IMG/VR virus record: IMGVR_UViG_3300033182_000652 | Span: 2,541-66,540 of that record | From: a virus | Direction: 5' to 3' (one strand) | Length of the DNA stretch: 64,000 bases | In this document: positions 11,371-59,431 of the stretch, in pieces | Position numbering within the stretch: the stretch's first letter is position 1 | How the letters are laid out: the number at the start of each line of letters is the position of its first letter | Translations under genes and position numbers: made by a program | Notes under the pieces: generated by a model | The model's database searches: none | What the model saw: only the letters and a program-made list of their open reading frames with translations | Told to the model about the DNA's origin: nothing

Positions 11371-14300
11371 TTATCTCGCACTTTCCGGATCGACCACCAA
11401 ATAGTCATAAAGATATTCAGCAGTCACTACCTCTTCTAACGCTTCAACATCTCCAAACTTGAGAGTGATTCCGGCATCCTGAATAACTTTAAAAAACGCA
11501 TCAGCCTCTTCACGAGTCTCAAACTTTTTTGTACCGGTAGTAAAAACGATTTCGTCAACATCTTCCAACCCTAGAATACCATGAAATTGCAGCTCTGCAT
11601 AGATTGATTCTCCGCCGCTGTTCAAATTCGTTTCATTTTCAAGCCACACGTTTGCAATCGAAAACTCTTCGATAGCGTTACCCAACCGTTCGGGATCGAC
11701 AGAGCCATCACGAAGATCACTAATCCTCACCCCAAAAACCCTATCATCTAGTGTGTCACCAAATGAAACTGTTGTTCGATCAGCAACTTCATCTTTGAAA
11801 CGAACATTAACATCTCCGTACCCCTGTAATATGTTACGGGTTTCTGCTTCGTCCCAAATAGTTCCCTCAACATAACCATACTTTGGCCTTAACGCTCCTT
11901 CAACGGTCTCATCAACCCCCAAACCCTCTTCAAGCGCCCTACGAAAACTTGGATCAAAATAAGCTTGTGACCTGCCCGTCTCGAATTGATTCTTGAACCG
12001 ACCATCTCCGGCAATCAGCTCCCGAAGACCAGATCCAGGCATCCTCATCGACAAACTTCCATCCTTCAACGAGTCAGCCAAATACTTAGACACCCTACTC
12101 GTTAACTCCGCCTCAAACTCTTCCCGGCTCATACCAGAAACTCTTTCAGCTTCCTCAAAATCTTGCGAACCTATCAAATAGTAAAGAGTATCTTTTACTT
12201 CCTCTAGGCTACGAGGAGTGATCGCACTACCGCTAAATGTTTCACGCCCAACAGAATCAGGCAAAGTGGCTTTTGAAACGGATTGAGGAACAAGCGGCTC
12301 ACCATTAACAAGCAAATACTCCGGAGGAATCCGATCACTAATCACAACAGTATCCGGCCTCGTCCCGTCAATACTTTCCTCAGGTACAAAATCGTCAACA
12401 GCGAAACTGCTGGCAATTCCTGTCAACACTTCGTTGCGGATCACATCCGGTTCCCTATCCAAACTATCAACAGAAATTACCCCATCCTCAATAGCTCTAG
12501 GCAAATCAATCTCTACCACAACATCATAACTAGCCTCAGCCACATCAGCAGTCTCCGACGTATACACAGCATCACCCACACCCCTGTTAACGATACCTCT
12601 AGTGTCACTACGTGGATCCAAGCCTTCCGTCCTGATAGTCTCCAAAGCTTCTGCTGTAGTGCCGTGGAAGACAACTGTGCGCTTTGCGTCATTTTCACGC
12701 CAATCTTGTAAAGCTTGCTCTTCTAACTCGGAAGTATCAATACTGTAAACAAAATCATCAAAGCTTTCAAAAGTTTCAATTTCGGTAGGCCCGTCACCCG
12801 AATCGTCTAATGCAAAATAAAGATCTGTCTCCATGTCGTAGAAAATGCGAGAGCCAGAGTCCAGTCTGGTTTCCAAATCTTGTAGAGCGAACTGTTCCTG
12901 AATGCGTTCAACGCTGGCGGTCAAATCATCAACACCAGTTAGCTCATCCGCACTGCTAAGATTACCCAACTGAGTTATCTTGGCGTCGCTTGATAAGTAA
13001 TCAAACACAGCATCTTCTGACAATCTAAAAGCACTCTCTTCTCTGTCAATGATAAAGTTACCAGAAGGTTCTCGGTGAAGATCCAAAAAATCGTCTCCCA
13101 ACATGTTAACACGCCGTGAGCTACCTCCAAGAACAACAACTTCTTGCTCGACAGAAATACCAAACCGGAAAGATTCCTTGTGAGCGTCGCTAGCAAACCC
13201 AAATATTAACTCAGCAGGAACTACATCATGTAGCAAAACATGCTCAGGCATTCCAAGATCTTCACCGCTATCTTTAATCTTTTGAATTTCATCCTTAGCA
13301 GTTTCGTATTTATTACCTAAAAACAGAAGAGCCGTGTCTAACCTGCTAGTCCACGACTGTAGACCACGTGCCCTGGGTACGCCACGATCAGTCGTCGTGC
13401 CACGAGGAACTTCGGACGACTTTGACCTCGGAATAAACAAACCTCGATACAAGTTAACTTCTGTAATATCATTTTCTTTCAAATACTGCTGTGTTGCAGA
13501 ATACTGGCTTCTCGCCCAAGCGTCAACAAACGGTGCAAGAGCCTCCTGTAGATTTCGGATACTTTCAAAATCAGAAGGCGACTCTCGTCGTTCATGCTGT
13601 ATAGAAACTCCAAACTCGTCCCCTAAAACTGTTTGAACACGTTCCGACAAAAAGTCCCAATGAAACACTTCACTTCTTGCTGATCCCCAATGATGGCCAA
13701 TAGCGTTCCTTAGCTGTATCGCAAGTTCTTCTTCGGCCTCACGTATACGCTGCTGCTGGTCCGCACTTTCATCAGAAGACGATCTGAAAGCAATCAAATC
13801 ATCTAATGCCTGTATCACTTTAAATGTTTTCTCGTCACCAAGACTGCCTCGCTCTGCTTCTAGATACAGCGGGCTGCCTTCATCTTCAACTGCTTGCCGT
13901 AAAGCTTCCTGCAACGGCACAAGATCCTCTTCAGTAGCCGCCTCAGCTACAAAACGATTCAAAGATTTTTGATCCTCCCGCAAGCCCTCACCATCAAGCG
14001 CACTAATATTCGTGGGAGGCTGAGTGAAACCGTCTAGTCTGTCAGCATTAGACAAGCGTTCCCTGTCCCATTCTGTAGGAGAATCAGGCCCTGGAGGAAG
14101 ACCAAAGTTGGGGTCAATGTCATCACTTGAACGGGCCATGAACGAAACCACTTCATCCCCAGCATCATCTAAATCATCAATCGTAGCAGCAGCATCAGCA
14201 GCCACTGCGTCGATAGACTGTCCGGCTCGTTCTGCTGCACGCTGGGCTTTGATAGCAGCAACTTCACTTTCAGGCGTAAGATCAGGAATACCTTCGGGTA

Positions 14301-17300
14301 TGCCAAGCTTCTTCCTTTCTTCCAGCGTGGCGTTTGGGATCTCAGCGGCGATAACTTCATCTGATCGGAAGTTTCCAAAAATTTGAGTTTCCAAATACTG
14401 AAAGTAACCGGTAGGGACATACTCTTGCCTTCTTTCATTTAGACCCCCTCTCCTTGAAAGAACGGTCGAATCACTGCCGCTGAGCGCAGCGAAAAAATAG
14501 GTAGGGTTAATCGTATTATCTCCGGGTGTGCTCGACTTTTTAAACACGATTTCTAATAAGTCTTGATCAGTCATGTTTGCACTGACAGGAACCGGACTGC
14601 CACTATTGTTAATTGAGTCGCCATCTGAAACGCTGGAGCGGAACAAAACCTTTGGATCTAACATCATTGTGCCGCCACGCACTGCCCCAGGACTTATCAA
14701 CCCAACTTCCTTATCATTAAACTCAAGTCTCGCCTCTTCCGTAAGATACCCTAAACCGAATCGCTCAAAGACTTTATCGTTAACAGCAGCAACAGCAGTT
14801 TCTTTATCAGCGTCGGGCAGGTCACTAAGTCGCTGTACATCAGGGAACTCTTCTAAAACTTCTGAGACTATTGAGCCGATTTCGGCTTCCGCCTCCTCAG
14901 TCATAACACCCCGAGACTTAACAACCCCATCAGAGTCGATCATAACTGGAGACAAATCTTCCAAAGCTAACTTGCGGGCCAAACGTCGCTGCTCGCCAGG
15001 AATAAGAGATCCATAACTGGGACGTAATTCGGGAGGAGAATCAGCATGAACACCCATCATCGACGCTTCAAAGCCCTCACGCACACTACCCGGTCCGCCC
15101 GAACTAGATCCCGATCTCACCTCGGGGAAATGGCTATTTTTATTAATACCGTCCCTGAAAACATCTCGTATATAATCAGAATCAACCACCACAGTAGTGT
15201 CAGGATCATCAAAAATGTTTCGCAAATAATCAACAACAAGCTGCTTACGTTCTTCAAAAGTCAAAGATTCATACGTCTCAATAAAGTCTTTACGCCAAGC
15301 AAGCTCCCGATTTTGGGAAGGAGTGTCCCACGTATCTGGCCTTTCTCTTATACGTTCCTCCATTGTTTTGATCTGCTCTTCATTCTCAGCCATAAGGCGA
15401 CCAAAAACACTATCCAACTGGGCATCATCAAGAGGTTTACCTTGACCAAAACGGATGGTATTACCCCTCGGAAGATTAGCCGTACGACGCTCCTCCCACT
15501 CCTCAGGAGAAAGCTTATTCATCCGCTCAAGACTAAAACCATACGAAGCAAGCTCCTCCAAAATACGGGCATTATTCGCCATAACAGGATCATCCGCCGT
15601 AGCAGCATCCAACTCGCCCGCATCAGCAAACCCCAACTGGCGGGCAATATCGTCACGAGTCACCGGATCAGGAACATACCCATCCATATGAACATGCAAC
15701 CCATCCCGCACCGGAATCTCCTCACCACCATCAAGACCCTCAGCACCCATAACAACCATTTCAGAAACCGCATCATCCGAATCAGCACGCAACTGATCAG
15801 ACAAACCACGCAACTCCGCCAAACGCTCCTTCTGCCGCAAAAACTCAGCAACCTTACCATCATACTCAGCAAAATCTTCACGCTGACGCTCCAACCCCGC
15901 AACAGGATCAAGACCATCCAACGGCACATCATTCTCATCCATATAATCCAACAAACGCCACAACACCTGACCCGTCATCTCCGAATCAGCATCAGCCGTA
16001 TGCCACGAAAAATCCTCCAACCCGAAAAACTCCTGCAACTTCTTCAACGACGCACTACCCGGACCATCCTCAATCCCAGCACGCTTAGCAATATTGCCCA
16101 AACCCATCGTGTCAAAATACGTCACCTCATCCAAATCAAACGACGGCACACCATCAGGATCATGACGCTGACGCTCCAACTCCATACGCTTCAAATCAAA
16201 CGCAGCATTATGCGCCATAAACACCACATCAGAACCATCAGAATCGCCATTAGCAAAACGCATAAACTCCTGCAACACCGTAGGCATATCAGGCTGCTTC
16301 GCCAAAAACTCCGGAGACATAGGCTTACCATCAGCATCAATCAAATTCGCTTGAGACCAATCAGACAACTCATCATAATCCACATTCACATACATGGAGA
16401 AACGATCAACAAGCACACCATCAACATAAACCACGCCACCCAACTGAACAATACGATCCTCATCAACCTCATCCGGATCCATACGCCCAGCAGTCTCCGT
16501 ATCAAAAACCACCACACGCTTACCCTTAAGAAGCTGCGACACCTCTCTCCACGAAGTCGCCTCAGCCAACTCATCACGCAAACCCGAACCGGCAAGATGC
16601 GGAGGAGGAGAGAACGGCGACCTCACACTATCTACAAGCACACCGTCCCTAAACAACTCAGGTTCGTCTATCTCTGCCTGCGCTAGCTCGCCAAGGATTC
16701 GATGATATCTATCTTCCGACGCAGCGTCCGAAAGCATCTGAGACGTGGCTGAAGGATCGCCAGCAACCCTAGGCAGTAAGCTTCCCCTCGGCTCTCGATC
16801 TAACAAACTTTCTGGAGTAGCGGAAGCAATATCTAATTCTTGTCTACCTGCCAAAGCAGTCAAAGGAGGAAGCTGGTCATCTCGCCAGTTCGGGTCAGAC
16901 AAAATAAACTTAAGTTCTTCAGGAATAATCTGCTTCGCATAGTTATCAAGCATTTCAGGCAGATGACTGTCTGTTCCGCTAGTGCCTGCAGGAATTCTTC
17001 GATTGCCTAAAACCTGGGAAGAAATCACTTCTGCCAACGTTTCGACCCGATCAGTCGTAGTTATTTTATCTTGAATCTTTGAAGGTATAATCTTGCTATC
17101 CCTTTTGTACCCGAACCTCTGGGCAATATAGTCCGAATTTGAATCGTACCCTAAAATAGATAGCAAGTAAGCTTGGTTGGAGAACGTAGGAGCCAGCTCC
17201 ATCTCTTCAGTAAATGCTTCAAGCCACGGCGTGCTCTCATCTATCCACTGTTGTGAAGCTAGACGGATAGGACTATCTTTAGCTGCAGCATAACTACCAC

Positions 17301-19341
17301 GCTTTCTTTGTCTTTCAAGACTACGTAGCTCACTCTGCATCTGGCGTCGGCGCTTTAACAAAGGAAGCTTGCGGACATTGTTTCCTGTGAAGGCGTCTAT
17401 TTCTGCCGTAATCTTACGGATATCTGCTTCAAGGCGTGATTTGTTCCTAAAGAAAGCATCCGCACTCAACAACGTATCAATTCTATGAACCGTCTCATGA
17501 ATAGCTACTTGCTCAAGACCGCTACCTCGAAGTGAAGTGATTTGGTACTGCTTAATATTACTCAGCAACTTTGCAATTTCAGGAGTATTCCCCACACCCA
17601 AAGGCAACTCTACGCCGTCAGGCCCATCATCAGGACCAAACCTTCTAATAGTTCCATTTTTACGATCAATAACTAAATGCTCTTCTAAGCCCAACACTCG
17701 TGGAGAAAGGGTTAGTACCCCAGTTTTATGGTTGAAGGAACCACCTGCAAAAAGGTTTCGTTTACCATCGGATTTATCGTAACCAATACGAATTTCTTTA
17801 GGCCGAAACTCGGGACTTAAACCATCCGTTGCGGTTTTAATTTTACGCAACAACCCCTCATTCTCCACACCCCCAGGGATATAACTAAGAATACCTGAAT
17901 CCCCAAAAAGATCCTGAAGTTCAGCATCAAATTTTACTTCAATGTCTCTCGGAGTAGTAGCGTCTTTAAGCTCAGCTGTTAACTCCGATAAACGCACACG
18001 AAACTGGTCAGCCAACACATGATCGCCTTCAGAATCAAGTCGCTGAATCTCAAGCTCCGCAATTTCTATATCTCTCAAAACTTGAGTGATCACATCAAAG
18101 TCCTGATATTGCCCACTCAACTCACCAGCACGCTCAACAAACCTACTGTCAGAAGTTATCTCTTTGCTCGAACTAATACCAATACGCTTATCAGCACGCC
18201 TCGCTGCTTTATCAGAAAGAGTACGAATCGCTTCGCCAGCAATATCGTCAGTTTTACGTCTAAAAGTGTAACCTGTCAGATAATCATAATCTTTAAATTC
18301 ACGACTCTTTCTAAACAAATTATCTAGCAGCTCAGGATTATCGACCATGTACTGCAGCTGACTATAGTAGCCAAGATGATCTTCAAGCGAAGATGTGTTT
18401 TTAGTAAGCCAATCCGCATGATAACGAACTTTGTCAAAATCACGATTAACGTAAGCATCAATCAACTCTTTTATGTGGTGATCATGCCAAGTCGTCACAG
18501 GAATAGTAGAAACCAGCGTTTGTAAAAGGCGGGCATTATTTTCATCAATTGGCCCGATTACATCTGCTACAGATCGGTTCTGTCTACGAGCCTCGGTTTG
18601 TAACTCATTTAAACGACTACTAAAAGCAGTAAACGACACTGATCCCCCAAATTTAAGCATGTCGCGTAATTCTGCGCCCAACGGTAGGCTCTCATACACC
18701 TGCTCCGGAGAATCCATGTAATTACCGAATAAACGCCCCTCCATAGCCAAAAACAAAAACTGACGATTACCGACAGCCTTAGCATCCATGTCAGTCACAT
18801 CTTCAACAGAAATCTTATACAAAGCACGCAGTTTGTCTTGAGTCTCTTGAGTAATCAAACCACTCTCAACAGCCTCCGGTAACAAAAGACCAGCTATTTT
18901 ATCATCAATGTACGCCCGACGCTGATCCAACTTCGTTGTCGCATTAGCCGCATCAAACCCAGCAAGACGTACATCATCACCAGCATCATCAAAACGAGAC
19001 TCATCAGCCAAAGAACGCCCCAAAAACCCACGAGGCAAAATGCCACGAGACTCCAAAAGCGAAGGCGAATCATCACCCAACGTCCCCAAAGACCCACCCA
19101 ACGTGGAAGAATCAGTATCTCTAAACGACGGCGTAAAATCCCAAACAGACCCGTCAGCACGAACAAACTCTACCCGATCACGATCAACCTGACCGTACTC
19201 GCTCCAAATCTCACCCGTGTCAATAAAGCGCAAATACGCCCCTTTAGGGCGCTCCCAAATCGTTCCATCCTGAACAAGACCATCAAGGTCACCGTCACGA
19301 GGAAACGGCACAAAAGGTACAACACGAGGTTTCCTAGCCAT
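11371..19341 (-). CDS. Giant polyvalent protein: zincin peptidase, DEDDh exonuclease, multiple ADP-ribosyltransferase-like domains
   Basis: HETVH + ETLAE; VFDTETAG/AHNAAFD/HTADAD; LYRGL..SWTS..EQE; FHGT..VYTS..IPPEYL; two DUF3626-like copies (RPSYG/RPKYG, Y.E.Q..G). Confidence 0.75.
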   Translation of the reverse strand: MARKPRVVPFVPFPRDGDLDGLVQDGTIWERPKGAYLRFIDTGEIWSEYGQVDRDRVEFVRADGSVWDFTPSFRDTDSSTLGGSLGTLGDDSPSLLESRGILPRGFLGRSLADESRFDDAGDDVRLAGFDAANATTKLDQRRAYIDDKIAGLLLPEAVESGLITQETQDKLRALYKISVEDVTDMDAKAVGNRQFLFLAMEGRLFGNYMDSPEQVYESLPLGAELRDMLKFGGSVSFTAFSSRLNELQTEARRQNRSVADVIGPIDENNARLLQTLVSTIPVTTWHDHHIKELIDAYVNRDFDKVRYHADWLTKNTSSLEDHLGYYSQLQYMVDNPELLDNLFRKSREFKDYDYLTGYTFRRKTDDIAGEAIRTLSDKAARRADKRIGISSSKEITSDSRFVERAGELSGQYQDFDVITQVLRDIEIAELEIQRLDSEGDHVLADQFRVRLSELTAELKDATTPRDIEVKFDAELQDLFGDSGILSYIPGGVENEGLLRKIKTATDGLSPEFRPKEIRIGYDKSDGKRNLFAGGSFNHKTGVLTLSPRVLGLEEHLVIDRKNGTIRRFGPDDGPDGVELPLGVGNTPEIAKLLSNIKQYQITSLRGSGLEQVAIHETVHRIDTLLSADAFFRNKSRLEADIRKITAEIDAFTGNNVRKLPLLKRRRQMQSELRSLERQRKRGSYAAAKDSPIRLASQQWIDESTPWLEAFTEEMELAPTFSNQAYLLSILGYDSNSDYIAQRFGYKRDSKIIPSKIQDKITTTDRVETLAEVISSQVLGNRRIPAGTSGTDSHLPEMLDNYAKQIIPEELKFILSDPNWRDDQLPPLTALAGRQELDIASATPESLLDREPRGSLLPRVAGDPSATSQMLSDAASEDRYHRILGELAQAEIDEPELFRDGVLVDSVRSPFSPPPHLAGSGLRDELAEATSWREVSQLLKGKRVVVFDTETAGRMDPDEVDEDRIVQLGGVVYVDGVLVDRFSMYVNVDYDELSDWSQANLIDADGKPMSPEFLAKQPDMPTVLQEFMRFANGDSDGSDVVFMAHNAAFDLKRMELERQRHDPDGVPSFDLDEVTYFDTMGLGNIAKRAGIEDGPGSASLKKLQEFFGLEDFSWHTADADSEMTGQVLWRLLDYMDENDVPLDGLDPVAGLERQREDFAEYDGKVAEFLRQKERLAELRGLSDQLRADSDDAVSEMVVMGAEGLDGGEEIPVRDGLHVHMDGYVPDPVTRDDIARQLGFADAGELDAATADDPVMANNARILEELASYGFSLERMNKLSPEEWEERRTANLPRGNTIRFGQGKPLDDAQLDSVFGRLMAENEEQIKTMEERIRERPDTWDTPSQNRELAWRKDFIETYESLTFEERKQLVVDYLRNIFDDPDTTVVVDSDYIRDVFRDGINKNSHFPEVRSGSSSGGPGSVREGFEASMMGVHADSPPELRPSYGSLIPGEQRRLARKLALEDLSPVMIDSDGVVKSRGVMTEEAEAEIGSIVSEVLEEFPDVQRLSDLPDADKETAVAAVNDKVFERFGLGYLTEEARLEFNDKEVGLISPGAVRGGTMMLDPKVLFRSSVSDGDSINNSGSPVPVSANMTDQDLLEIVFKKSSTPGDNTINPTYFFAALSGSDSTVLSRRGGLNERRQEYVPTGYFQYLETQIFGNFRSDEVIAAEIPNATLEERKKLGIPEGIPDLTPESEVAAIKAQRAAERAGQSIDAVAADAAATIDDLDDAGDEVVSFMARSSDDIDPNFGLPPGPDSPTEWDRERLSNADRLDGFTQPPTNISALDGEGLREDQKSLNRFVAEAATEEDLVPLQEALRQAVEDEGSPLYLEAERGSLGDEKTFKVIQALDDLIAFRSSSDESADQQQRIREAEEELAIQLRNAIGHHWGSARSEVFHWDFLSERVQTVLGDEFGVSIQHERRESPSDFESIRNLQEALAPFVDAWARSQYSATQQYLKENDITEVNLYRGLFIPRSKSSEVPRGTTTDRGVPRARGLQSWTSRLDTALLFLGNKYETAKDEIQKIKDSGEDLGMPEHVLLHDVVPAELIFGFASDAHKESFRFGISVEQEVVVLGGSSRRVNMLGDDFLDLHREPSGNFIIDREESAFRLSEDAVFDYLSSDAKITQLGNLSSADELTGVDDLTASVERIQEQFALQDLETRLDSGSRIFYDMETDLYFALDDSGDGPTEIETFESFDDFVYSIDTSELEEQALQDWRENDAKRTVVFHGTTAEALETIRTEGLDPRSDTRGIVNRGVGDAVYTSETADVAEASYDVVVEIDLPRAIEDGVISVDSLDREPDVIRNEVLTGIASSFAVDDFVPEESIDGTRPDTVVISDRIPPEYLLVNGEPLVPQSVSKATLPDSVGRETFSGSAITPRSLEEVKDTLYYLIGSQDFEEAERVSGMSREEFEAELTSRVSKYLADSLKDGSLSMRMPGSGLRELIAGDGRFKNQFETGRSQAYFDPSFRRALEEGLGVDETVEGALRPKYGYVEGTIWDEAETRNILQGYGDVNVRFKDEVADRTTVSFGDTLDDRVFGVRISDLRDGSVDPERLGNAIEEFSIANVWLENETNLNSGGESIYAELQFHGILGLEDVDEIVFTTGTKKFETREEADAFFKVIQDAGITLKFGDVEALEEVVTAEYLYDYLVVDPESAR

Positions 19342-44378: not shown

Positions 44379-45695
44379 ATGTCTAACGAGGCTCCAGACT
44401 GGAACAAAATTCGGCAATACTTGGAACCGAAACGTTCCGAATATTGGATCGAAGAGCCGTCGATCACACAAAAAGTCTTCCTAAAAAGCACCGCACAAGA
44501 AGTACTTTTTGGTGGAGCAGCAGGCGGCGGCAAATCTAGCGCCCTTATCATGGCTGCCCTACAGTACGTCGATGTTCCCGGTTACAGCGCAATCCTGTTT
44601 AGGCGCACATACGCTGACCTTGCACTACCCGGCGCTCTCATGGACCGCTTCCGAGATTGGACCATGCACTACGACGACGTTCATTGGAATGCCAACAGCT
44701 ACACAGCCACGTTCCCTAGCGGAGCCAGAGTAACATTCGGTTACCTCAACAACGTCAACGACTACCTCAGATACAAGGGTTCCGAGTTCCAATTCATCGG
44801 AATGGACGAGGTAACAGAAATCAGAGAGTCTGACTACCGTTACATGTTCTCCCGTCTTCGCCGTCCGGCATCAGGCCCGCTGGCTCAAGTCCCGTTGAGA
44901 ATGCGGGCAGCCACAAACCCTGCACCTAACTGGGTACGTCAGCGATTCCTTGTTGAAGGCAAAGATCGTGGAAGAATCTTTATCCCGTCCATGCTAACAG
45001 ATAACCCCGGCATCGACCCCGCCTCTTACCGGGCCGTTCTTCAAGAGCTAGACCCTGTTGAGCGGAAGCGGCTTGAGTTCGGTGACTGGTGGTCAACCGC
45101 TCTAGGATCACTTTTCAATCGCGAAAGTTTTGAGATCATAGATGACAGCGAAATCCCATCGTTCTCTAACGATACACAAATCGTAAGATTCTGGGACTTA
45201 GCTGGCTCAGAACCAACACAATCTAACCCAGACCCTGACTGGACAGTTGGTTGTCTCGGAGCGTTTGATAACGGAGTGTTCTACATCTTGGACATTCGCA
45301 GAATCAGAGCTAAGGGAGATAAAGTAGAAAAGTTTATTCGAGCCACGGCTGCAGAAGACGGTCCAGAAATTCCTATTATGATGGAGCAGGAACCAGGGTC
45401 TGCAGGTAAAAACCTTATTGACCAATATGCCCGATATGTGCTTCCAGGCTACAACTTTACAGGCCAACGTGCTACTGGTGATAAAGCCACAAGGGCAAAG
45501 CCACTTTCAGCAGCCGTAGCTAACGGTAACGTTCGCTTAATCCGGGCAGCATGGAACACAGACTTTCTAGATGAGGTCTCGGCGTTCCCCGAAGCACGTG
45601 TGCATGATGACCAAGTGGATGCGACAGTCCACGCTTTCAATCACTGCGCCGGACTGGGTATGGGCATTCGCCGTAAAATTGAAATAATTATTTAG
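44379..45695 (+). CDS. Terminase large subunit
   Basis: GGAAGGGKS Walker A, FIGMDE Walker B, ATNP, FWDLA, HDDQVD. Confidence 0.93.
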   Translation: MSNEAPDWNKIRQYLEPKRSEYWIEEPSITQKVFLKSTAQEVLFGGAAGGGKSSALIMAALQYVDVPGYSAILFRRTYADLALPGALMDRFRDWTMHYDDVHWNANSYTATFPSGARVTFGYLNNVNDYLRYKGSEFQFIGMDEVTEIRESDYRYMFSRLRRPASGPLAQVPLRMRAATNPAPNWVRQRFLVEGKDRGRIFIPSMLTDNPGIDPASYRAVLQELDPVERKRLEFGDWWSTALGSLFNRESFEIIDDSEIPSFSNDTQIVRFWDLAGSEPTQSNPDPDWTVGCLGAFDNGVFYILDIRRIRAKGDKVEKFIRATAAEDGPEIPIMMEQEPGSAGKNLIDQYARYVLPGYNFTGQRATGDKATRAKPLSAAVANGNVRLIRAAWNTDFLDEVSAFPEARVHDDQVDATVHAFNHCAGLGMGIRRKIEIII

Positions 45696-48628: not shown

Positions 48629-49798
48629 TTAACTTAACCTAAAATCGTCTTGCAAGTCAAGGCTGTCGGCATCAGCCATGTCCTGATAGAGGGCTTTCAT
48701 CCTCTTCTTATGTGCAATAGTTTGTGGCCCAACGGGTGAAGGATTACCAACAACAGAATTGAGTAGCAAAGTTCTTACTAAATGGTCAATCGGGTAAGCG
48801 AAAGGATCTTTGTTATGTGACGTTCTAAACTTGTCCGCAAAAGAAAACGCTAAACGACGATAGTCAACATCATCAAAATGCGTTTCAATGCACTCTTTAA
48901 CACCATCCCAACCATTTGCGGCAAACTGATCCACAACTGCCTCAATATCATACTCCCCCCAAAGTTGGCGCTGAGTATCTATCTCGGGAAACACCTCAAC
49001 TAGTCGGTCATAAAACTCCGGCTCAGTTTTAACTACGTCAGTCAGCCTTCTAGCTGCCGTAGAAAACAAAGGCGTACCAACCCGTTGATTTGCACCACCT
49101 AACATGGCGTAATCATAGTACTTGCAGTAAGAAGCACCGTGTTCTTCAGTGATAAACTTCAGAACATCATCAGAAGTCCAATCGTAAATCACTTTAGCAA
49201 ACCTCAATGGTATTGCTTTAGGCAAGCCTTGAGGACGATTGATATAATTTTCGTGAAGCTTCTGAGTAACGGATCGGTAACGAACCATTGACTCATTCGC
49301 CCTTACCCCGGTAATAAACGCAGTACGGCCACGCTTCCCCTGCATTGTATACTCATCTATTCGTTTAGGAAGAGGTAGATTGCCAGACAACCCAAAGTGC
49401 TCGGCTCGAATACAGTTCGGCGGGAAGTCTCGGACCAGCATGCCACACTCTTCCCGAAACGCAGACCACAGTAAAACCAGTTCACGGGTACCCATGTACC
49501 AAACCTCTTGCAACTGAGGAAGGCAGTACCATTCCATGTCCACCCAGTCATAGTTACTTACTTTAGTAACAAACTCTTCCGCCGCAGGCGAAATAATTTC
49601 TTCGTCACGAAAAATCGCTTTGACAGGTCCAAGCCCGCGCTCTTCATGAACCTCTTTCGCAAGATACAACGCAGCGGTGCTATCTTTACCGCCACTAAAC
49701 TGAACACAAACCGTGTCAAAAATATCGTAGACGTGACGAATCCGCTGCCTAGCGGCCTCTACACAGTTTATGTCCAGATACATTTGCTTACGAGGCAT
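48629..49798 (-). CDS. PAPS reductase-like PP-loop protein (IbrA-like)
   Basis: FSGGKDS, FRDEE, GVRANES..RY, IYDW...DV. Confidence 0.85.
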   Translation of the reverse strand: MPRKQMYLDINCVEAARQRIRHVYDIFDTVCVQFSGGKDSTAALYLAKEVHEERGLGPVKAIFRDEEIISPAAEEFVTKVSNYDWVDMEWYCLPQLQEVWYMGTRELVLLWSAFREECGMLVRDFPPNCIRAEHFGLSGNLPLPKRIDEYTMQGKRGRTAFITGVRANESMVRYRSVTQKLHENYINRPQGLPKAIPLRFAKVIYDWTSDDVLKFITEEHGASYCKYYDYAMLGGANQRVGTPLFSTAARRLTDVVKTEPEFYDRLVEVFPEIDTQRQLWGEYDIEAVVDQFAANGWDGVKECIETHFDDVDYRRLAFSFADKFRTSHNKDPFAYPIDHLVRTLLLNSVVGNPSPVGPQTIAHKKRMKALYQDMADADSLDLQDDFRLS

Positions 49799-49803
49799 GC
49801 GAC

Positions 49804-50586
49804 TTACTCCAAATGCTGGTTAAAGAAATCAAACAAAAGCTCCGTCGTTGTAGCGCCCTCATATGCAGGACTTTCCTTCAACTTGTGAAGAATCCTATAC
49901 CACCCAGCCTGCTGATCGGTGTTTTCAAAAACAAGAGTAAACTGAATAGCGACGTTCTTGCTGCCCGAAGCCCCAACGGTCGTACTGCCTTGAGTTACGA
50001 TCGTGTCAGTACTTACACCTTCAGGATTAAACGTCTGAGTCGGAGCGTCATCTTTGCCGTCGCTTACAAAAGCAGGCAAGTTATTTTCTTCAGGAACCCT
50101 GTTTACCGTAATCTGTGGAGCAGTCCAACCATCGTTAGGAGCGCTTGATACCTGTGAAGAAATTACATTGTTTTCGATCGTGGCAATCGAAAAATCATCC
50201 CAACCGAGGGTGCTGTAAAAATCTTCGTCCAGGCTAACAGCATCCGACAGCAAGTCGATAAGAGCGCTTTCATCAGTCTCACCAAGCTCGGAAATCCTAT
50301 TGTCTGCCAACGAGAAGGCGAGGGCGTCTTCTGAATCTAAATCAACGATGGACACAGCAATTTCTTGCCAACCCAAACGCTTAGCTGCCTCTAGCTGATG
50401 ATTTCCTGCGATAACTAAGAGCTTGTCGTCATCTTCCACGGCGACAATTGGCTTTACTTGCCCAAACTTGTTGTAAGACGCCATGATTGCTTCAACGTTG
50501 CCACGACGTGCGTTAACCTCAAGAGGCTTCAGTAGCTCAATGTCTACAGCTAGGGACTGAATGTTTGAAGCGATGTTATGGATCAT
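49804..50586 (-). CDS. ParB N-terminal domain protein
   Basis: NAR.G, FGQVKPIV, IAGNHQLEAAK.LGW, LADNR. Confidence 0.8.
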   Translation of the reverse strand: MIHNIASNIQSLAVDIELLKPLEVNARRGNVEAIMASYNKFGQVKPIVAVEDDDKLLVIAGNHQLEAAKRLGWQEIAVSIVDLDSEDALAFSLADNRISELGETDESALIDLLSDAVSLDEDFYSTLGWDDFSIATIENNVISSQVSSAPNDGWTAPQITVNRVPEENNLPAFVSDGKDDAPTQTFNPEGVSTDTIVTQGSTTVGASGSKNVAIQFTLVFENTDQQAGWYRILHKLKESPAYEGATTTELLFDFFNQHLE

Positions 50587-51197
50587 GACGGCGCATACCC
50601 CATAACTGCACACTGCCAATGCCAATAACCAACGACAGGCCAAGTGATATTGTTTTCATTATCCTTCCAAGATTTCATTCCGACGTTTTTCTCCACTTTA
50701 TCGGTAAACACATTACACTCATCAAATACTGTAGACATTATTGAAAGCATTCTCTTTTCATGACAGTTCCAGTGATGAGCAGCACCGTCCCACCACTCGG
50801 GGGTATTTGTGGAGTAGGCATCAGAATTTATGAACGATGTATACCCTCCGTACACGTCCTGATGCTCCATAACGGATTCAACCATATGCCAAGGCTCTTC
50901 ACCGTTTTTCCAGCGTTGTATAGTTCTATAAACATCTGGACCCACAGCAAGTACAGGAGCATTAGGTTTAGCAATCCTATTCATATCCTGTAAGAAAGGA
51001 AGAACGTCGTGCCAATCAATATGCTCCAGAACGTGGCCAAGAAATATGGCGTCAAAAGTATCATCATCGAATGGGTATGGCTGACCGGGTTCTACAAGAA
51101 CATCAGGCTTAGTCGCATGATCCTCCCAAACGTCTGTGTTTGTCCATCCTTCAGCGTAGTGTGTACCACATCCCACATTAAGTAGCTGCTTTTCCAT
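50583..51197 (-). CDS. Class I SAM methyltransferase-like protein
   Basis: LNVGCG, PFDDDTFDAIFLGHVLEHI. Confidence 0.8.
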   Translation of the reverse strand: MEKQLLNVGCGTHYAEGWTNTDVWEDHATKPDVLVEPGQPYPFDDDTFDAIFLGHVLEHIDWHDVLPFLQDMNRIAKPNAPVLAVGPDVYRTIQRWKNGEEPWHMVESVMEHQDVYGGYTSFINSDAYSTNTPEWWDGAAHHWNCHEKRMLSIMSTVFDECNVFTDKVEKNVGMKSWKDNENNITWPVVGYWHWQCAVMGYAPS

Positions 51198-56808: not shown

Positions 56809-57201
56809 TTAGTCTTCTTCCAAGAGCTTGTCAATCAAAATGTCAATGTTGGTTGTCTCTGTAGGGACATCTTCTGTAAGTATCAAAGCATCAATAATGT
56901 TTTCTAAAGCTTCAATCAATAACTCTTTGGAACGTTCACGCACATACTCTTCTTGATCGACTTGAGTGGATTCCAACTCATCAAGCTCCCGAATAATGTC
57001 CGAAACAATTTTTGAATCAAACTCGGAATTTAAAAACTCGTCCGCAAGACCAACCAGCATGTAATCCTCATCCCACAACAATACTTTGTAATCTTTACCA
57101 TCAAGAGTAACAGCCTTACTGACAACAAACTGGATTCTGGTGCCGCTGCGTTCAAGAACAGCTAAAGTATCGTGGGACATAGACTCGTCATCCAGCATCA
57201 T
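56809..57201 (-). CDS. Acidic hypothetical protein
   Basis: 130 aa, overlaps the whiB stop. Confidence 0.65.
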   Translation of the reverse strand: MMLDDESMSHDTLAVLERSGTRIQFVVSKAVTLDGKDYKVLLWDEDYMLVGLADEFLNSEFDSKIVSDIIRELDELESTQVDQEEYVRERSKELLIEALENIIDALILTEDVPTETTNIDILIDKLLEED

Positions 57202-57424
57202 GCTCCACCAACCTCGCTAGCTCCGGTCCCGTTTTACCTCCCCAAACACCGATGGTGATGCCCTCTGAAACGGCAAACTTCAAACATTCAGAACGATGAC
57301 TGCATTCAGAATTGCATACCTTGACAGCAAGACGCCGGTTCAACGGTTTCGATGAGAAAAACAAACGATCTTGCCCAGAACACGGAGAATCTTTGAACCA
57401 AGACGGTGACTTAACTACAAACAT
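57188..57424 (-). CDS. whiB: WhiB-family transcription factor
   Basis: Four Cys (C..FF..A..VC..C....CL..A) and GVWGG. Confidence 0.88.
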   Translation of the reverse strand: MFVVKSPSWFKDSPCSGQDRLFFSSKPLNRRLAVKVCNSECSHRSECLKFAVSEGITIGVWGGKTGPELARLVEHDAG

Positions 57425-57495
57425 TTGACTCCTTTTCGATCAGTAACAAAAATATTATAAATCTTTCATGTCAAGCAAACCAGAAGAAACGCTGC

Positions 57496-57524
57496 TTGAC
57501 TGACAGCAGCCAGAACGGTAGGCT
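57496..57524 (+). promoter_or_regulatory. Sigma-A-like promoter facing a non-coding region
   Basis: TTGACT(57496)-N17-TAGGCT(57519). Confidence 0.75.
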
Positions 57525-57530
57525 ACCTGC

Positions 57531-58012
57531 AAACTACAGAAGGAGACACACGCCACAAGACTGAATCCGGGAAATCCCGATGACATAAACGTTCACTAAA
57601 GGACCGGTGGGTTACACTTGTTACGCAACTGGTACTTACACGATCGGTAAGTTACACTTGTTACGCAACTGGTACTTACACGATTAAGAGGGCACGCCTG
57701 CCCAAAGAGGAACGATATGGATCACACGATACACTGGAACAACATCCTTGACGGGATGCCAGTCACTGCACGGAGAACATCAAGCCTTGAGGAACAGGTT
57801 CGGAACAAGCAAACGCCCATGCGGTTCCGGCACACGGGCTACTAGAGCCATATCTAGGGAGAGTGGGCATCACTGAAAAAATAGGCGGTGTTTGGGGTCC
57901 ATGAAGTGAACAGCCTTGAATAAACCAATTGGGTTCGTCCCGTCCTCTCGTGCGCTAGCGTCAACTACCACACGAAAGGGAGGGACCTCCATGCCAAAAA
58001 AAACACTTCAGG
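57531..58012 (+). ncRNA. Candidate structured non-coding RNA (or origin-associated transcript)
   Basis: Promoter upstream, no ORF of 60 aa or more, several hairpins, duplicated stem-loop with G.U-compatible changes. Confidence 0.45.
57605..57684 (+). repeat. 40-bp tandem duplication (38/40 identical)
   Basis: cggtRRgttacacttgttacgcaactggtacttacacgat x2. Confidence 0.95.
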
Positions 58013-58016
58013 GCAG

Positions 58017-58385
58017 TCACTTCAAAATACTACGTAACTGCTGAGCATCAATAAATATGGTTGCAGTACTGCCCCTCAACTCAACCTGATCCAAAGACAC
58101 ATCAAAATGCGAAGCAAGCGTAGCCTTTGCTTTCAACTCCTCCATTGGATCGTAATGATCAAAAAAGTCACGATCTTCCCTGTTTTCAGATAGTGCTTCC
58201 ATGAGCGTTAACGGAGCAGGGGGAGCGATACAAGTCTTACAACACAAGCGATCCTCGCTGACCTTGGGCTTCCGGGCGCTGGCAACAGTGTGCCCACATT
58301 CTAACTCAATATGCCATTTAGTTTTTCCGTACTCACCCAGACGTACTGCCTGAGTGACCAACCGCTTCGGTCCACGTTTCTCCAT
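58017..58385 (-). CDS. Zn-finger-like hypothetical protein
   Basis: LECGH...C..C; leaderless TAGAAT-N6-ATG. Confidence 0.7.
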
Positions 58386-58441: not shown

Positions 58442-59431
58442 ATGGTAGATAGAGAAAAACTTTTAGAAGACGCCTTAGGGCAAATTGAAAAACAGTTCGG
58501 TGCTGGAACAGTCATGCGCCTAGGCGACGCAGCATCTATGGAAATCGAAACCGTCTCAACCGGCTCCATTGCCCTAGACCTTGCACTAGGCGCAGGCGGG
58601 CTGCCCAAGGGACGAGTCACCGAAATTTACGGTCCAGAGTCATCAGGTAAGACCACTATCGCACTACACGTTATCGCAGAAGCACAGAAGCTTGGAGGCA
58701 AGTGTGCTTTCATTGACGCAGAGCACGCTTTAGATCCCGTGTACGCTAAAGCTATTGGATGCGACGTAGACAACCTTCTAGTCAGTCAGCCAGATACCGG
58801 CGAGCAGGCACTCACAATTACGAACAAGCTCATTGAGTCAGGCGCACTAGATGTGGTCGTTGTTGACTCGGTTGCGGCCCTTACGCCCCGAGCCGAAATT
58901 GAAGGAGAGATGGGTGACAGCCACGTTGGTCTTCACGCCCGCCTGATGTCTCAGGCCATGCGCAAGATTGTCGGAAACCTGAACCACTCAAACACCATTC
59001 TGATTATGATCAATCAGCTGCGTGAAAAGATTGGTGTCATGTTCGGGTCACCAGAAGTAACCACAGGCGGTAAGGCGCTGAAGTTTTATGCATCAGTACG
59101 TTTGGATATTCGCCGTATTGAAACTCTCAAAGACGGCGGCGAAGCGTCCGGAAACAAGACCCGAGTAAAGGTTGTCAAGAACAAAGTCGCTCCCCCGTTC
59201 CGTCAGGCCGAATTTGAAATCACCTACGGCGAAGGAATCAACCGTACCGGCGATATTGTTGACATTGCTACAGAGATGGGCATTATCGACAAGAAGGGCG
59301 CATGGTACGCTTACAAGGGCGAAAATATCGGTCAGGGCCGAGCCAACACCAAGATCTATCTTGATGAAAACCCCGATGTTAGAGAAACGATTGCAAACAC
59401 AATCTACTCTGTGCTTCCAAATATTTCCTAG
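58442..59431 (+). CDS. recA: Recombinase RecA
   Basis: [44 protein letters not shown]. Confidence 0.97.

What the first reader, a model, noticed from the sequence alone, without database searches (positions are those of the whole stretch)
57496..58016. Strong promoter driving an ORF-free, highly structured region of about 480 nt
Seen: this is the largest intergenic gap. TTGACT-N17-TAGGCT points into it and the next gene is convergent. Hairpins: CGGGA/TCCCG (57568-57579), the duplicated stem-loops, GGGCA/TGCCC (57690-57703), CATCCT/GGGATG (57743-57758), a long GTCCC..TCGTG/CACGA..GGGAC stem (57937-57986), enclosed by TGAAGTG/CACTTCA (57902-58010). I do not recognise it as tmRNA, RNase P or another known family. 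Inference: a novel phage ncRNA or an R-loop primer RNA at the replication origin.
Basis: partly seen in the sequence, partly recalled or inferred. Interest (0 to 1): 0.75.

Follow-up and report, generated by a model that had tools for sequence, protein, structure and literature searches.

The report
New ornate RNA gene in marine actinophages
The gap holds a promoter-driven gene for a roughly 430-base, intricately folded non-coding RNA that matches no described RNA family and is conserved in a group of uncultured marine phages that probably infect actinobacteria.

Summary
The ORF-free gap 57425-58016 is real. It holds an autonomous RNA gene. A conserved promoter (TTGACT 57496-57501, 17 nt, TAGGCT 57519-57524) is present in 48 of 52 distinct relatives. 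It precedes a unit of about 430 nt, which is 468 nt here because of a window-only 40-nt tandem duplication.

I collected 52 distinct copies from viral and marine metagenome contigs. Two motif scans of 185,579 prokaryote genomes found none. A curated structure of 17 helices and 84 pairs, with one pseudoknot, is paired in 96.7% of cells. 39 pairs carry compensatory changes, 0 of 500 shuffles reach this, and slid controls give 30-43%. Eight held-out sequences keep 93-95% of the pairs. G-U outnumbers A-C 306 to 38, so the promoter-sense strand is the one that folds.

No ORF is conserved. Rfam and ARAGORN find nothing. Downstream genes vary or are absent and appear to carry their own promoters, so a cis leader is unlikely.

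The origin-primer idea is untested. Function is unknown. The closest analogues are ROOL and GOLLD and the abundant Pleft RNA of mycobacteriophages L5 and D29. Transcript evidence is weak.

The parts
57470..57500 (.). Perfect 8-nt inverted repeat GTCAAGCA / TGCTTGAC (57470-57477 and 57493-57500). The right arm overlaps the -35 box of the RNA promoter. The left arm (TGTCAAG) is also conserved in most relatives. It may be an operator or part of the divergent promoter architecture.
   Evidence: pair I6; conservation seen in the alignments. The role is inferred, not tested.
57496..57524 (+). Promoter of the RNA gene: -35 TTGACT (57496-57501), 17-nt spacer, -10 TAGGCT (57519-57524).
   Evidence: TTGACN-N17/18-TANNNT occurs in 48 of 52 distinct sequences, with variable spacers and 15 different -10 hexamers. 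Not listed by the generic scan.
57529..57996 (+). Structured non-coding RNA, 468 nt here and about 420-440 nt in relatives. The 5' end is inferred at the conserved GCAAAC, 5-7 nt after the -10. The 3' end is inferred just after the last conserved hairpin and the ATGCCAAAA motif.
   Evidence: nhmmer gave 94 hits in the fetched loci, nearly all spanning the whole model; the five partial ones touch the end of the DNA held. Alignment A1. Structure statistics. The ends are inferred, not mapped.
57540..57545 (+). AAGGAG, a Shine-Dalgarno-like motif in the A-rich 5' leader. In the representative sequences inspected by eye, no start codon follows at a usable distance.
   Evidence: conserved in nearly all rows although its position shifts. 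The role is inferred (RNA stabiliser or ribosome contact).
57568..57579 (+). P1 hairpin, CGGG-AAAT-CCCG.
   Evidence: helix 1: 100% paired, and one pair is G-C in 38 and A-U in 6 sequences. Two further pairs covary in the held-out sequences.
57591..57911 (+). Long-range helices that close the core. P2 is 57591-57596 with 57906-57911. P3 is 57601-57605 with 57896-57900. P4 is 57615-57619 with 57861-57865.
   Evidence: helices 2-4: paired in 95.8, 96.8 and 100% of cells, with 3, 4 and 2 pairs changed on both sides. Coordinates.
57597..57676 (+). Window-only tandem duplication, two copies of 40 nt at 88% identity. It duplicates the P4 5' strand and the conserved GTTACGCAACTGG segment.
   Evidence: (37 of 40 identical at offset 40). 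Single copy in all relatives. One RNA-library contig of a relative skips 40 nt here (table 5).
57690..57818 (+). Pseudoknot: GGGC 57690-57693 pairs with GCCC 57815-57818, which lies in the loop of P9.
   Evidence: helix 5: 100% paired, and one pair is G-C in 36 and A-U in 8 sequences.
57696..57799 (+). Central arm, with these pairings: P5 57696-57700/57795-57799; P5a 57702-57703/57791-57792; P6 57707-57710/57785-57788; P7 57714-57718/57777-57781; P8 57733-57737/57759-57763; P8a 57743-57747/57754-57758.
   Evidence: helices 6-11 (88-100% paired; 3, 2, 1, 1, 3 and 5 pairs changed on both sides). Coordinates.
57800..57892 (+). Three hairpins: P9 57800-57806/57824-57830 with P9a 57809-57810/57821-57822; P10 57842-57846/57853-57857; P11 57866-57873/57885-57892, which has an A-rich loop. 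The invariant single strand GGCACACGGGC lies between P9 and P10.
   Evidence: helices 12-14 (100, 100 and 96.1% paired). Invariant columns listed.
57931..57978 (+). 3' domain: small hairpin P12 (GGG 57931-57933 with CCC 57939-57941) and hairpin P13 (57945-57952 with 57971-57978, apical pairs 57956-57958 with 57965-57967). P13 is a candidate terminator or 3'-end protector without a U tract.
   Evidence: helices 15-17 (94.7, 91.8 and 80.3% paired). One search compares the alternatives. No intrinsic terminator was called on the + strand.
57978..57999 (+). GGGAGGG (57978-57984) followed by ATGCCAAAA (57991-57999), a conserved 3' tail motif NTGCCNAAA. Its meaning is unresolved. It could be the RNA's tail, a short non-conserved ORF start, or a -35-like box for the next gene in some relatives.
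   Evidence: My hand tally of the first codon, made from that listing and not by a script: ATG 17, TTG 15, CTG 4, GTG 1, ATA 5, ACG 1 of 43. ORF length varies from 5 to more than 30 codons.

Best explanation
The gap holds an autonomous gene for a large structured non-coding RNA.

Shown:
- A promoter of the host housekeeping-sigma type points rightward.
- A unit of about 430 nt follows it and is conserved as a block in 52 distinct phage-like contigs.
- The promoter-sense strand of this unit folds into at least 17 helices. These include three nested long-range helices and a pseudoknot, and are interspersed with invariant single-stranded stretches.
- No reading frame is conserved.
- The RNA is kept whether the next gene is convergent, a variable cargo cassette, a tRNA or recA.

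Inferred:
- Host RNA polymerase makes the RNA early in infection.
- It starts at the conserved GCAAAC and ends at or just after the 3' hairpin P13.
- It accumulates as a stable, compactly folded molecule that acts in trans.
- The fold and the invariant loops suggest a scaffold or catalytic or assembly core, possibly one that touches the translation apparatus through its two Shine-Dalgarno-like motifs.
- It is not a simple antisense regulator. I found no complementary targets in the window.

Its biochemical function is unknown.
For: - Conservation. The element is 77-87% identical at DNA level, against 72-75% for the neighbouring gene, and keeps its place when 1.3-2.4 kb are inserted beside it. 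Of the 94 nhmmer hits, nearly all span the whole model; the five partial ones touch the end of the DNA held.
- Structure. RNAalifold gives 69 pairs, 32 of them with compensatory changes. In the curated 84-pair structure, 96.7% of cells are paired against 88.5% in shuffles. 39 pairs changed on both sides against 25.6, and 324 such cells against 80.2. 0 of 500 shuffles reach any of these. Partners slid by 1-3 columns give 30-43% paired and 3-9 such pairs.
- Held-out test. Eight further sequences were not used to draw the structure. They keep 76-80 of 80-84 pairs and add new compensatory pair types at pairs that were invariant before.
- Strand. There are 306 G-U cells against 38 A-C cells. 96.7% of cells pair on the + strand against 89.4% if the complement is read.
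- Promoter. Present in 48 of 52 sequences, with a 17-18 nt spacer and a TANNNT -10.
- Not coding. The window's 42-codon frame is 42 codons in 21 of 44 sequences, cut to 11-26 codons in 19, and frame-shifted to 55-62 in 4. No other ORF start is shared by more than 19 of 44.
- Autonomy. In my reading of the ORF maps, the immediate downstream neighbour is a convergent gene in 14-16 of 44, co-oriented cargo in 22, tRNA-Arg plus a DNA methylase in 3, and unknown in 3. In four divergent members it is recA itself. Cargo, tRNA and recA each have a TANNNT box 6-7 nt before their start, read by eye in representative loci.
- RNA libraries. Contigs of relatives cover parts of the element in 4 metatranscriptome runs from 3 studies.
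Against: - No strand-specific or end-mapping transcript data exist. The RNA-library contigs are short (151-235 nt), have depth 2-3.3, and could be carried-over DNA. One run (X17) also holds contigs on both flanking genes. The runs were found through the conserved element, which biases what they cover.
- No canonical intrinsic terminator is called on the + strand, so the 3' end is only inferred.
- The family is narrow. All members share at least about 69% identity with the window's copy. Many compensatory changes are inherited together, for example one 33-to-11 split of the sequences. Independent events are therefore far fewer than cells.
- One of the five measures, further pair types, is not above shuffles: 78 against 78.1, reached by 290 of 500 shuffles.
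- The folding energy z-score is only -2.94 and is similar on the other strand.
- Nothing here shows what the RNA does. Acting in trans is an inference from context.
Confidence: 0.7

Rival explanations
1. The RNA is a giant cis-acting leader. It would be a riboswitch-like sensor, antiterminator or translational control element for the genes downstream of it: the cargo cassette, the tRNA or recA.
For: In 22 of 44 distinct sequences, co-oriented genes start 30-50 nt after the last hairpin. A GGGAGG motif lies in the 3' strand of P13, followed 6-8 nt later by NTG (my hand tally: ATG, TTG, CTG or GTG in 37 of 43). The CCC of hairpin P12 could alternatively pair with that GGG, which looks like an expression platform.
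Against: The element and its promoter are equally conserved in the 14-16 sequences where the next gene is convergent. Downstream genes belong to unrelated families: LicD, cytidylyltransferase, methyltransferases, deacetylase, dioxygenases, GT2, DNA methylase and recA. They have their own TANNNT boxes 6-7 nt before the ATG, a leaderless arrangement. The short ORF after the NTG is not conserved in length or sequence. At 430 nt the element is far larger than known riboswitch aptamers. The outer sequestering helix is paired in only 33-42 of 44 sequences, with poor register.
Confidence: 0.12
2. The transcript is a replication primer or origin RNA. A structured RNA made from a strong promoter would form a persistent hybrid with the template and prime DNA synthesis, as ColE1 RNA II does.
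For: The element has a strong promoter and an ORF-free structured transcript of a few hundred nt. It sits inside the recombination and replication neighbourhood: recA, a Rad52-like annealing protein, a PD-(D/E)XK exonuclease and ParB-like genes.
Against: The element itself lacks the origin-like traits I looked for. The only repeat is the window-only duplication, and the sequence is not A+T-rich by eye. I did not look specifically for an antisense regulator, and no - strand promoter was called inside the element. Conservation is highest in the internal loops and long-range helices, not at the 3' end where a primer would be handed over. Variable cargo is inserted right at the 3' end, which an origin would tolerate poorly. 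Nothing was tested directly.
Confidence: 0.07
3. It is a DNA-level element: a single-stranded DNA structure used in recombination, packaging or single-strand initiation, or a cluster of protein-binding sites. Any RNA made would be incidental.
For: Hairpins with G-T pairs can also form in single-stranded DNA. The motif CAC(A)CG recurs five times in invariant stretches (seen). An inverted repeat overlaps the promoter.
Against: A conserved promoter is oriented to transcribe exactly the folding strand, and conservation begins at the predicted start. Nested long-range helices spanning 250-320 nt and a pseudoknot are typical of RNA tertiary folds. Contigs of the element occur in RNA libraries (weak).
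Confidence: 0.04
4. It encodes one or more small proteins, for example the 42-codon frame 57717-57845, which is preceded by AGAGGA.
For: The frame is open for 42 codons in 21 of 44 sequences and has a purine-rich stretch before an NTG.
Against: The frame is truncated to 11-26 codons in 19 of 44 sequences and frame-shifted in 4. The changes inside it are compensatory for helix P8a rather than synonymous. Its 'start' is a bulged variable base next to helix P7.
Confidence: 0.02

Closest known systems
ROOL and GOLLD RNAs (Rfam families; large ornate RNAs of phages and prophages)
   Same: They are phage-encoded, several hundred nt long, elaborately folded with pseudoknots, and of unknown function. 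They have no known protein partner and are often near tRNAs (PMC12286853, passages read). Here a tRNA-Arg follows the RNA in 3 of 52 distinct sequences.
   Different: No Rfam match at gathering score, or at E up to 10, in the window or in six relatives. This RNA is smaller: about 430 nt, against 659 nt for the ROOL studied and over 800 nt for many GOLLD. It is not in tRNA islands. It is confined to one clade of uncultured marine phage-like contigs, with none in 185,579 prokaryote genomes by two motif scans. Oligomer or cage formation is untested.
[quoted passage not shown]
   Same: It is an actinophage RNA made from a strong early promoter that leads into an ORF-free region of about 500 bp. 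It is the most abundant transcript after infection, its function is unknown, and it is toxic to the host when expressed (PMC5712189, passages read).
   Different: There is no detectable sequence similarity: blastn of the region against 50,697 GenBank phage records found nothing. The Pleft RNA lies at a genome end and heads the early operon. No covariation-supported fold is mentioned in the passages I read. The RNA here stands between whiB and recA.
ColE1 RNA II type primer RNAs
   Same: A promoter-driven structured transcript of a few hundred nt without an ORF (recalled knowledge, not from a call).
   Different: I did not look for an antisense partner, and no - strand promoter was called inside the element. 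No origin features were found, and the tertiary-type architecture is much more elaborate. Priming was not testable here.
Large housekeeping structured RNAs (RNase P RNA, tmRNA, group I/II introns, 6S and Ms1-type RNAs)
   Same: Similar size range and complexity, with long-range helices and invariant joining strands.
   Different: No Rfam covariance model for these families reaches even E = 10 on the region. ARAGORN finds no tmRNA. No gene is interrupted, as an intron would require.

Membership tests
Any Rfam 15 family (4227 models) | Covariance-model score at or above the family's gathering score | tested here: not met
   0 matches in the whole window. 0 matches other than one tRNA in six relatives' loci. 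At E up to 10 there are only two chance hits to eukaryotic families, both at 57344-57487, outside the element.
GOLLD / ROOL | Match to the family model and its consensus fold | tested here: not met
   No hit at E up to 10 on 57300-58200.
GOLLD / ROOL | Encoded in phages or prophages, often beside tRNAs | tested here: inconclusive
   Phage-like contigs: yes. A tRNA-Arg(TCT) lies downstream in only 3 of 52 distinct sequences, and there is none in the window.
GOLLD / ROOL | Self-assembly into homo-oligomeric cages | not testable with these tools
   Needs native gels or cryo-EM.
tmRNA / tRNA-like | tRNA-like domain plus tag reading frame | tested here: not met
   ARAGORN finds 0 genes in the window.
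Riboswitch or cis-regulatory leader | Constant association with a regulated downstream gene in the same transcript | tested here: not met
   The downstream neighbour is convergent in 14-16 of 44 sequences, and otherwise belongs to unrelated families with their own -10 boxes.
Small-protein gene | Reading frame kept open across relatives | tested here: not met
   The best frame is intact in 21 of 44 sequences, truncated in 19 and shifted in 4.
Primer RNA / replication origin | RNA-DNA hybrid formation and initiation of DNA synthesis at its 3' end | not testable with these tools
   The element itself lacks origin-like sequence features. There is no functional test.
Structured ncRNA gene (generic) | Own promoter, conserved boundaries, covariation-supported fold on the transcribed strand | tested here: met
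Structured ncRNA gene (generic) | Discrete transcript detected | tested here: inconclusive
   There are only short low-depth contigs of relatives in 4 RNA libraries from 3 studies. Contigs cannot show strand, ends or level.

The most novel reading that the evidence does not exclude
This is a previously undescribed class of large RNA machine specific to marine actinophages: a ribozyme or a self-assembling RNA particle. It would be made in bulk from an early promoter and would engage the host translation apparatus through its two Shine-Dalgarno-like motifs. That would make it a third kind of phage ornate RNA, unrelated to ROOL and GOLLD.
Probability: 0.2. Interest if true: 0.9.

Novelty: new variant of a known kind. 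Interest (0 to 1): 0.75.

Why it matters
Structured RNAs above 400 nt with dense covariation are rare. Those whose roles are known are mostly ribozymes or central cellular machines. ROOL, GOLLD and OLE have recently turned out to form unexpected RNA-only assemblies.

A new, unrelated family adds a tractable case to the open question of what large phage RNAs do. It has a clear promoter, clean boundaries, a compact size of about 430 nt and 52 natural variants. The size suits chemical probing and cryo-EM. The natural variants already define which helices and which invariant strands to mutate.

It also marks a fixed hot spot where these phages swap sugar-, lipid- and DNA-modifying cargo genes.

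Tried and rejected
- Rfam at gathering score and at E up to 10 found nothing.
- ARAGORN found nothing.
- blastn of the region against GenBank phages found nothing. megablast of 14 kb found only a 110-nt recA stretch.
- Two motif scans of one genome per prokaryote species gave 0 matches each. These need exact matches to invariant positions, so distant cellular homologues are not excluded.
- A 17-mer scan returned five loci (L018, L021, L031, L037, L038) that had no blastn or nhmmer match to the element. I dropped them as chance. Most of the 95 loci from the 15-mer scan were chance as well.
- TRF did not report the two-copy duplication. The repeat finder did.
- I searched the window for sequences complementary to 13 conserved single-stranded motifs. 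Only scattered 2-mismatch hits turned up, so there is no antisense target.
- I searched for extra tertiary pairs among unpaired variable columns. Only isolated single pairs appeared and none was convincing.
- A simple helix scan that allowed G-U was too noisy to use.
- Pairing of the 5' end with the 3' tail, and of the tail with the invariant TTTGGG, was considered by eye and is not kept across the family.
- I first read a leftward TTGACA-N17-TATAAT promoter for whiB. Recounting gives only 9 nt between the boxes, so I withdrew that reading. The -10-like TATAAT (57454-57459, - strand) stays as a candidate.
- The sequencing-run search found no run holding more than 0.19 of the sampled words. I draw no habitat or host conclusion from it.
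- No covariance model was built. The full unit exceeds the size that can be calibrated, and only in-session DNA could have been searched with it.
- Literature searches for a prior description found none. Supplements were not seen and might list candidate marine RNAs.

Full report
**Setting.** The window is most of a 66,540-nt linear IMG/VR virus record that CheckV rates 45% complete. The element occurs once in it. The genes are those of a tailed phage: terminase, portal and protease, a 2656-aa ORF, and a long leftward operon. The operon begins with a WhiB-like regulator (57188-57424). It continues with a Rad52-like annealing protein and a PD-(D/E)XK exonuclease. To the right lie a leftward 122-aa gene of no known family (58017-58385) and a full-length recA (58442-59431; Pfam E 1.6e-136). 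WhiB points to an actinobacterial host. The closest cultured phages share at most about 45% terminase identity.

**The observation.** The gap 57425-58016 has no ORF above 43 codons. TTGACT-N17-TAGGCT sits at 57496-57524. Folding energy alone is only moderately unusual: z is -2.94 on the + strand and -2.46 on the - strand. The case therefore rests on comparison with relatives.

**Relatives.**
- Protein-anchored searches with the two flanking genes brought 16 loci.
- blastn showed the gap conserved at 77-87% identity from about 57529 to 57990. The adjoining 122-aa gene is only 72-75% identical. The element stays intact where 1.3-2.4 kb are inserted beside it.
- Scans with invariant motifs brought more loci from viral contigs and marine metagenome contigs. 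The same motifs found nothing in one genome each of 185,579 prokaryote species.
- A profile search gave 94 hits. Nearly all span the whole model; the five partial ones touch the end of the DNA held.
- The hits collapse to 44 distinct sequences including the window, aligned as A1. Eight more divergent sequences came later.
- Five 17-mer loci without any further similarity were dropped as chance.

**Promoter.** Upstream of the conserved unit, TTGACN-N17/18-TANNNT is present in 48 of 52 distinct sequences. Spacer sequences are unconserved and there are 15 different -10 hexamers. Two of the four misses are cut by contig ends. The other two carry a variant -35. A conserved NCAA lies 3-5 nt after the -10 in 42 of the 48, which fits a start at the GCAAAC of 57529-57534. 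The generic scan missed the site, presumably because TAGGCT matches the E. coli -10 consensus at only 3 of 6 positions.

**Structure.**
- RNAalifold predicts 69 pairs, 32 of them with compensatory double changes.
- I curated 84 pairs in 17 helices; window coordinates come. The helices are P1; three nested long-range helices P2-P4 that span 250-320 nt; a central arm P5-P8a; hairpins P9-P11; a pseudoknot between 57690-57693 and the P9 loop; and a 3' domain P12-P13.
- On A1, 96.7% of cells pair, against 88.5% in shuffles. 39 pairs changed on both sides, against 25.6. There are 324 such cells, against 80.2. 0 of 500 shuffles reach these values.
- Sliding the partners by 1-3 columns gives 30-43% paired and 3-9 such pairs.
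- One measure, further pair types, is not above shuffles: 78 against 78.1.
- Much covariation is co-inherited, including one 33-to-11 split, so independent events are fewer than cells.
- The eight later sequences played no part in drawing the structure. They keep 76-80 of 80-84 pairs. They also bring new compensatory types at pairs that were invariant before, for example two pairs of P1 and one of P8.
- G-U cells outnumber A-C cells 306 to 38, so the promoter-sense strand is the one that folds.

**Not coding, not a known family.** The window's best frame (57717-57845) is 42 codons in 21 of 44 sequences. It is cut to 11-26 codons in 19 and shifted in 4. Its internal changes are the compensatory ones of helix P8a. 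Rfam gives nothing at gathering score in the window or in six relatives. At E up to 10 it gives nothing relevant. ARAGORN finds no tRNA or tmRNA in the window. blastn finds no GenBank phage match.

**Context and autonomy.** The RNA always lies divergent from whiB. What follows it varies. In my reading of the ORF maps, the neighbour among the 44 sequences is:
- the convergent 116-139-aa gene directly, in 14-16 (the window included);
- co-oriented cargo, in 22;
- a tRNA-Arg(TCT) plus a DNA methylase, in 3;
- unknown, in 3, because too little sequence follows.

The cargo genes encode LicD-like proteins, a cytidylyltransferase, DUF3307, methyltransferases, a polysaccharide deacetylase, PhyH and 2OG dioxygenases, and GT2. 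In four divergent members recA follows directly. In the representative loci I read by eye, cargo genes, the tRNA and recA each have a TANNNT box 6-7 nt before their first base. This suggests their own, largely leaderless, promoters. The RNA is therefore kept for its own sake. A cis-leader role is unlikely though not excluded. A GGGAGG and a conserved NTGCCNAAA follow P13, and their meaning is unresolved.

**Transcript evidence.** No public run holds more than 0.19 of the sampled words. In four metatranscriptome runs from three studies, short contigs of relatives (151-235 nt, depth 2-3.3) lie on parts of the element. One of them lacks the window's 40-nt duplication. One run also covers both flanking genes. 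Contigs cannot show strand, ends or level, and DNA carry-over is possible. This is a weak hint only.

Three are supported: CGGG/CCCG, CATCC/GGATG and the inner 3' stem. Three are not. The 'duplicated stem-loops' are a window-only 40-nt tandem duplication of one strand of P4 and an invariant segment. GGGCA/TGCCC conflicts with P5 and the pseudoknot. TGAAGTG/CACTTCA uses the P2 strand and non-conserved flank.

**Mechanism and comparison.** Shown: a promoter, a conserved unit, a fold on the sense strand, and independence from neighbouring genes. Inferred: early transcription by the host polymerase, a 3' end at or after P13 (no U-tract terminator was called), stability, and action in trans.

The nearest functional analogues are two.
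- The abundant, stable and toxic non-coding RNA made from the early promoter Pleft of mycobacteriophages L5, D29 and StarStuff (PMC5712189, passages read).
- The phage ornate RNAs ROOL and GOLLD, which have unknown function and form RNA-only cages (PMC12286853, passages read).

The element is a member of none of these. The idea that the 5' AAGGAG acts as a stabiliser against 5' exonuclease, as described for Gram-positive mRNAs, is recalled knowledge and a guess. The origin-primer hypothesis has no positive support but was not testable.

**Verdict.** This is a real RNA family that I did not find in the libraries or papers I could search. It is large, ornate and clade-restricted, and its function is unknown. 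I found no prior description. Supplements were closed.

Noticed in passing
downstream of the RNA in relatives, e.g. L039:3657-4917, L042:2891-4532, L074:1782-4374, L024:1960-4588: The 3' flank of the RNA is a hot spot for swapped cargo cassettes. One cassette has LicD-like, cytidylyltransferase and DUF3307 genes. Another has methyltransferase, polysaccharide deacetylase, PhyH dioxygenase and GT2 genes. A third has GT2, methyltransferase and 2OG-Fe(II) oxygenase genes. The window has no cargo there.
   Followed up: partly
L035:4995-5068, L141:1148-1221, L163:3661-3734: A tRNA-Arg(TCT) lies 50-140 nt downstream of the RNA on the same strand in two lineages. An N6/N4 DNA methylase follows it. A TTGTAA-N17-TATAGT box directly precedes the tRNA in the L016-type sequence.
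   Followed up: partly
relatives, 30-50 nt after the RNA; also upstream of recA in L171-L174: Cargo genes and recA have TANNNT boxes 6-7 nt before the ATG and no Shine-Dalgarno sequence. This suggests leaderless mRNAs, as is common in actinobacteria (recalled).
   Followed up: no
window 57470-57477 / 57493-57500: A perfect 8-nt inverted repeat GTCAAGCA/TGCTTGAC brackets the region upstream of the RNA promoter and overlaps its -35. The left arm is conserved in most relatives. It is a candidate operator.
   Followed up: partly
window 57454-57459 (- strand): A conserved TAYAMT box (TATAAT here) lies about 30 nt upstream of the whiB start codon. It is the likely -10 of the leftward operon. The nearby TTGACA is only 9 nt away, so it is not this promoter's -35.
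   Followed up: partly
window 58017-58385 (-): A 122-aa cysteine-rich protein with no Pfam or PHROG family lies between the RNA or cargo and recA in most relatives. It is absent in L171-L174, so it is not an obligate partner of the RNA.
   Followed up: partly
window 58442-59431 (+): A full-length bacterial-type RecA with its C-terminal domain is encoded by the phage, alongside a Rad52-like annealing protein and a PD-(D/E)XK exonuclease.
   Followed up: no
window 48629-50643 (-): A PAPS-reductase-like gene lies next to a ParB-like nuclease or partition gene. This may be a DNA-modification module.
   Followed up: no
window 11371-19341 (-): A single 2656-aa ORF lies in the structural region. It was not examined.
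   Followed up: no
window 44379-45695 (+): The large terminase's best matches in GenBank phages are archaeal viruses psiM2 and psiM100 (44-45% identity) and Gordonia phages (about 40%). The phage clade has no close cultured relative.
   Followed up: no
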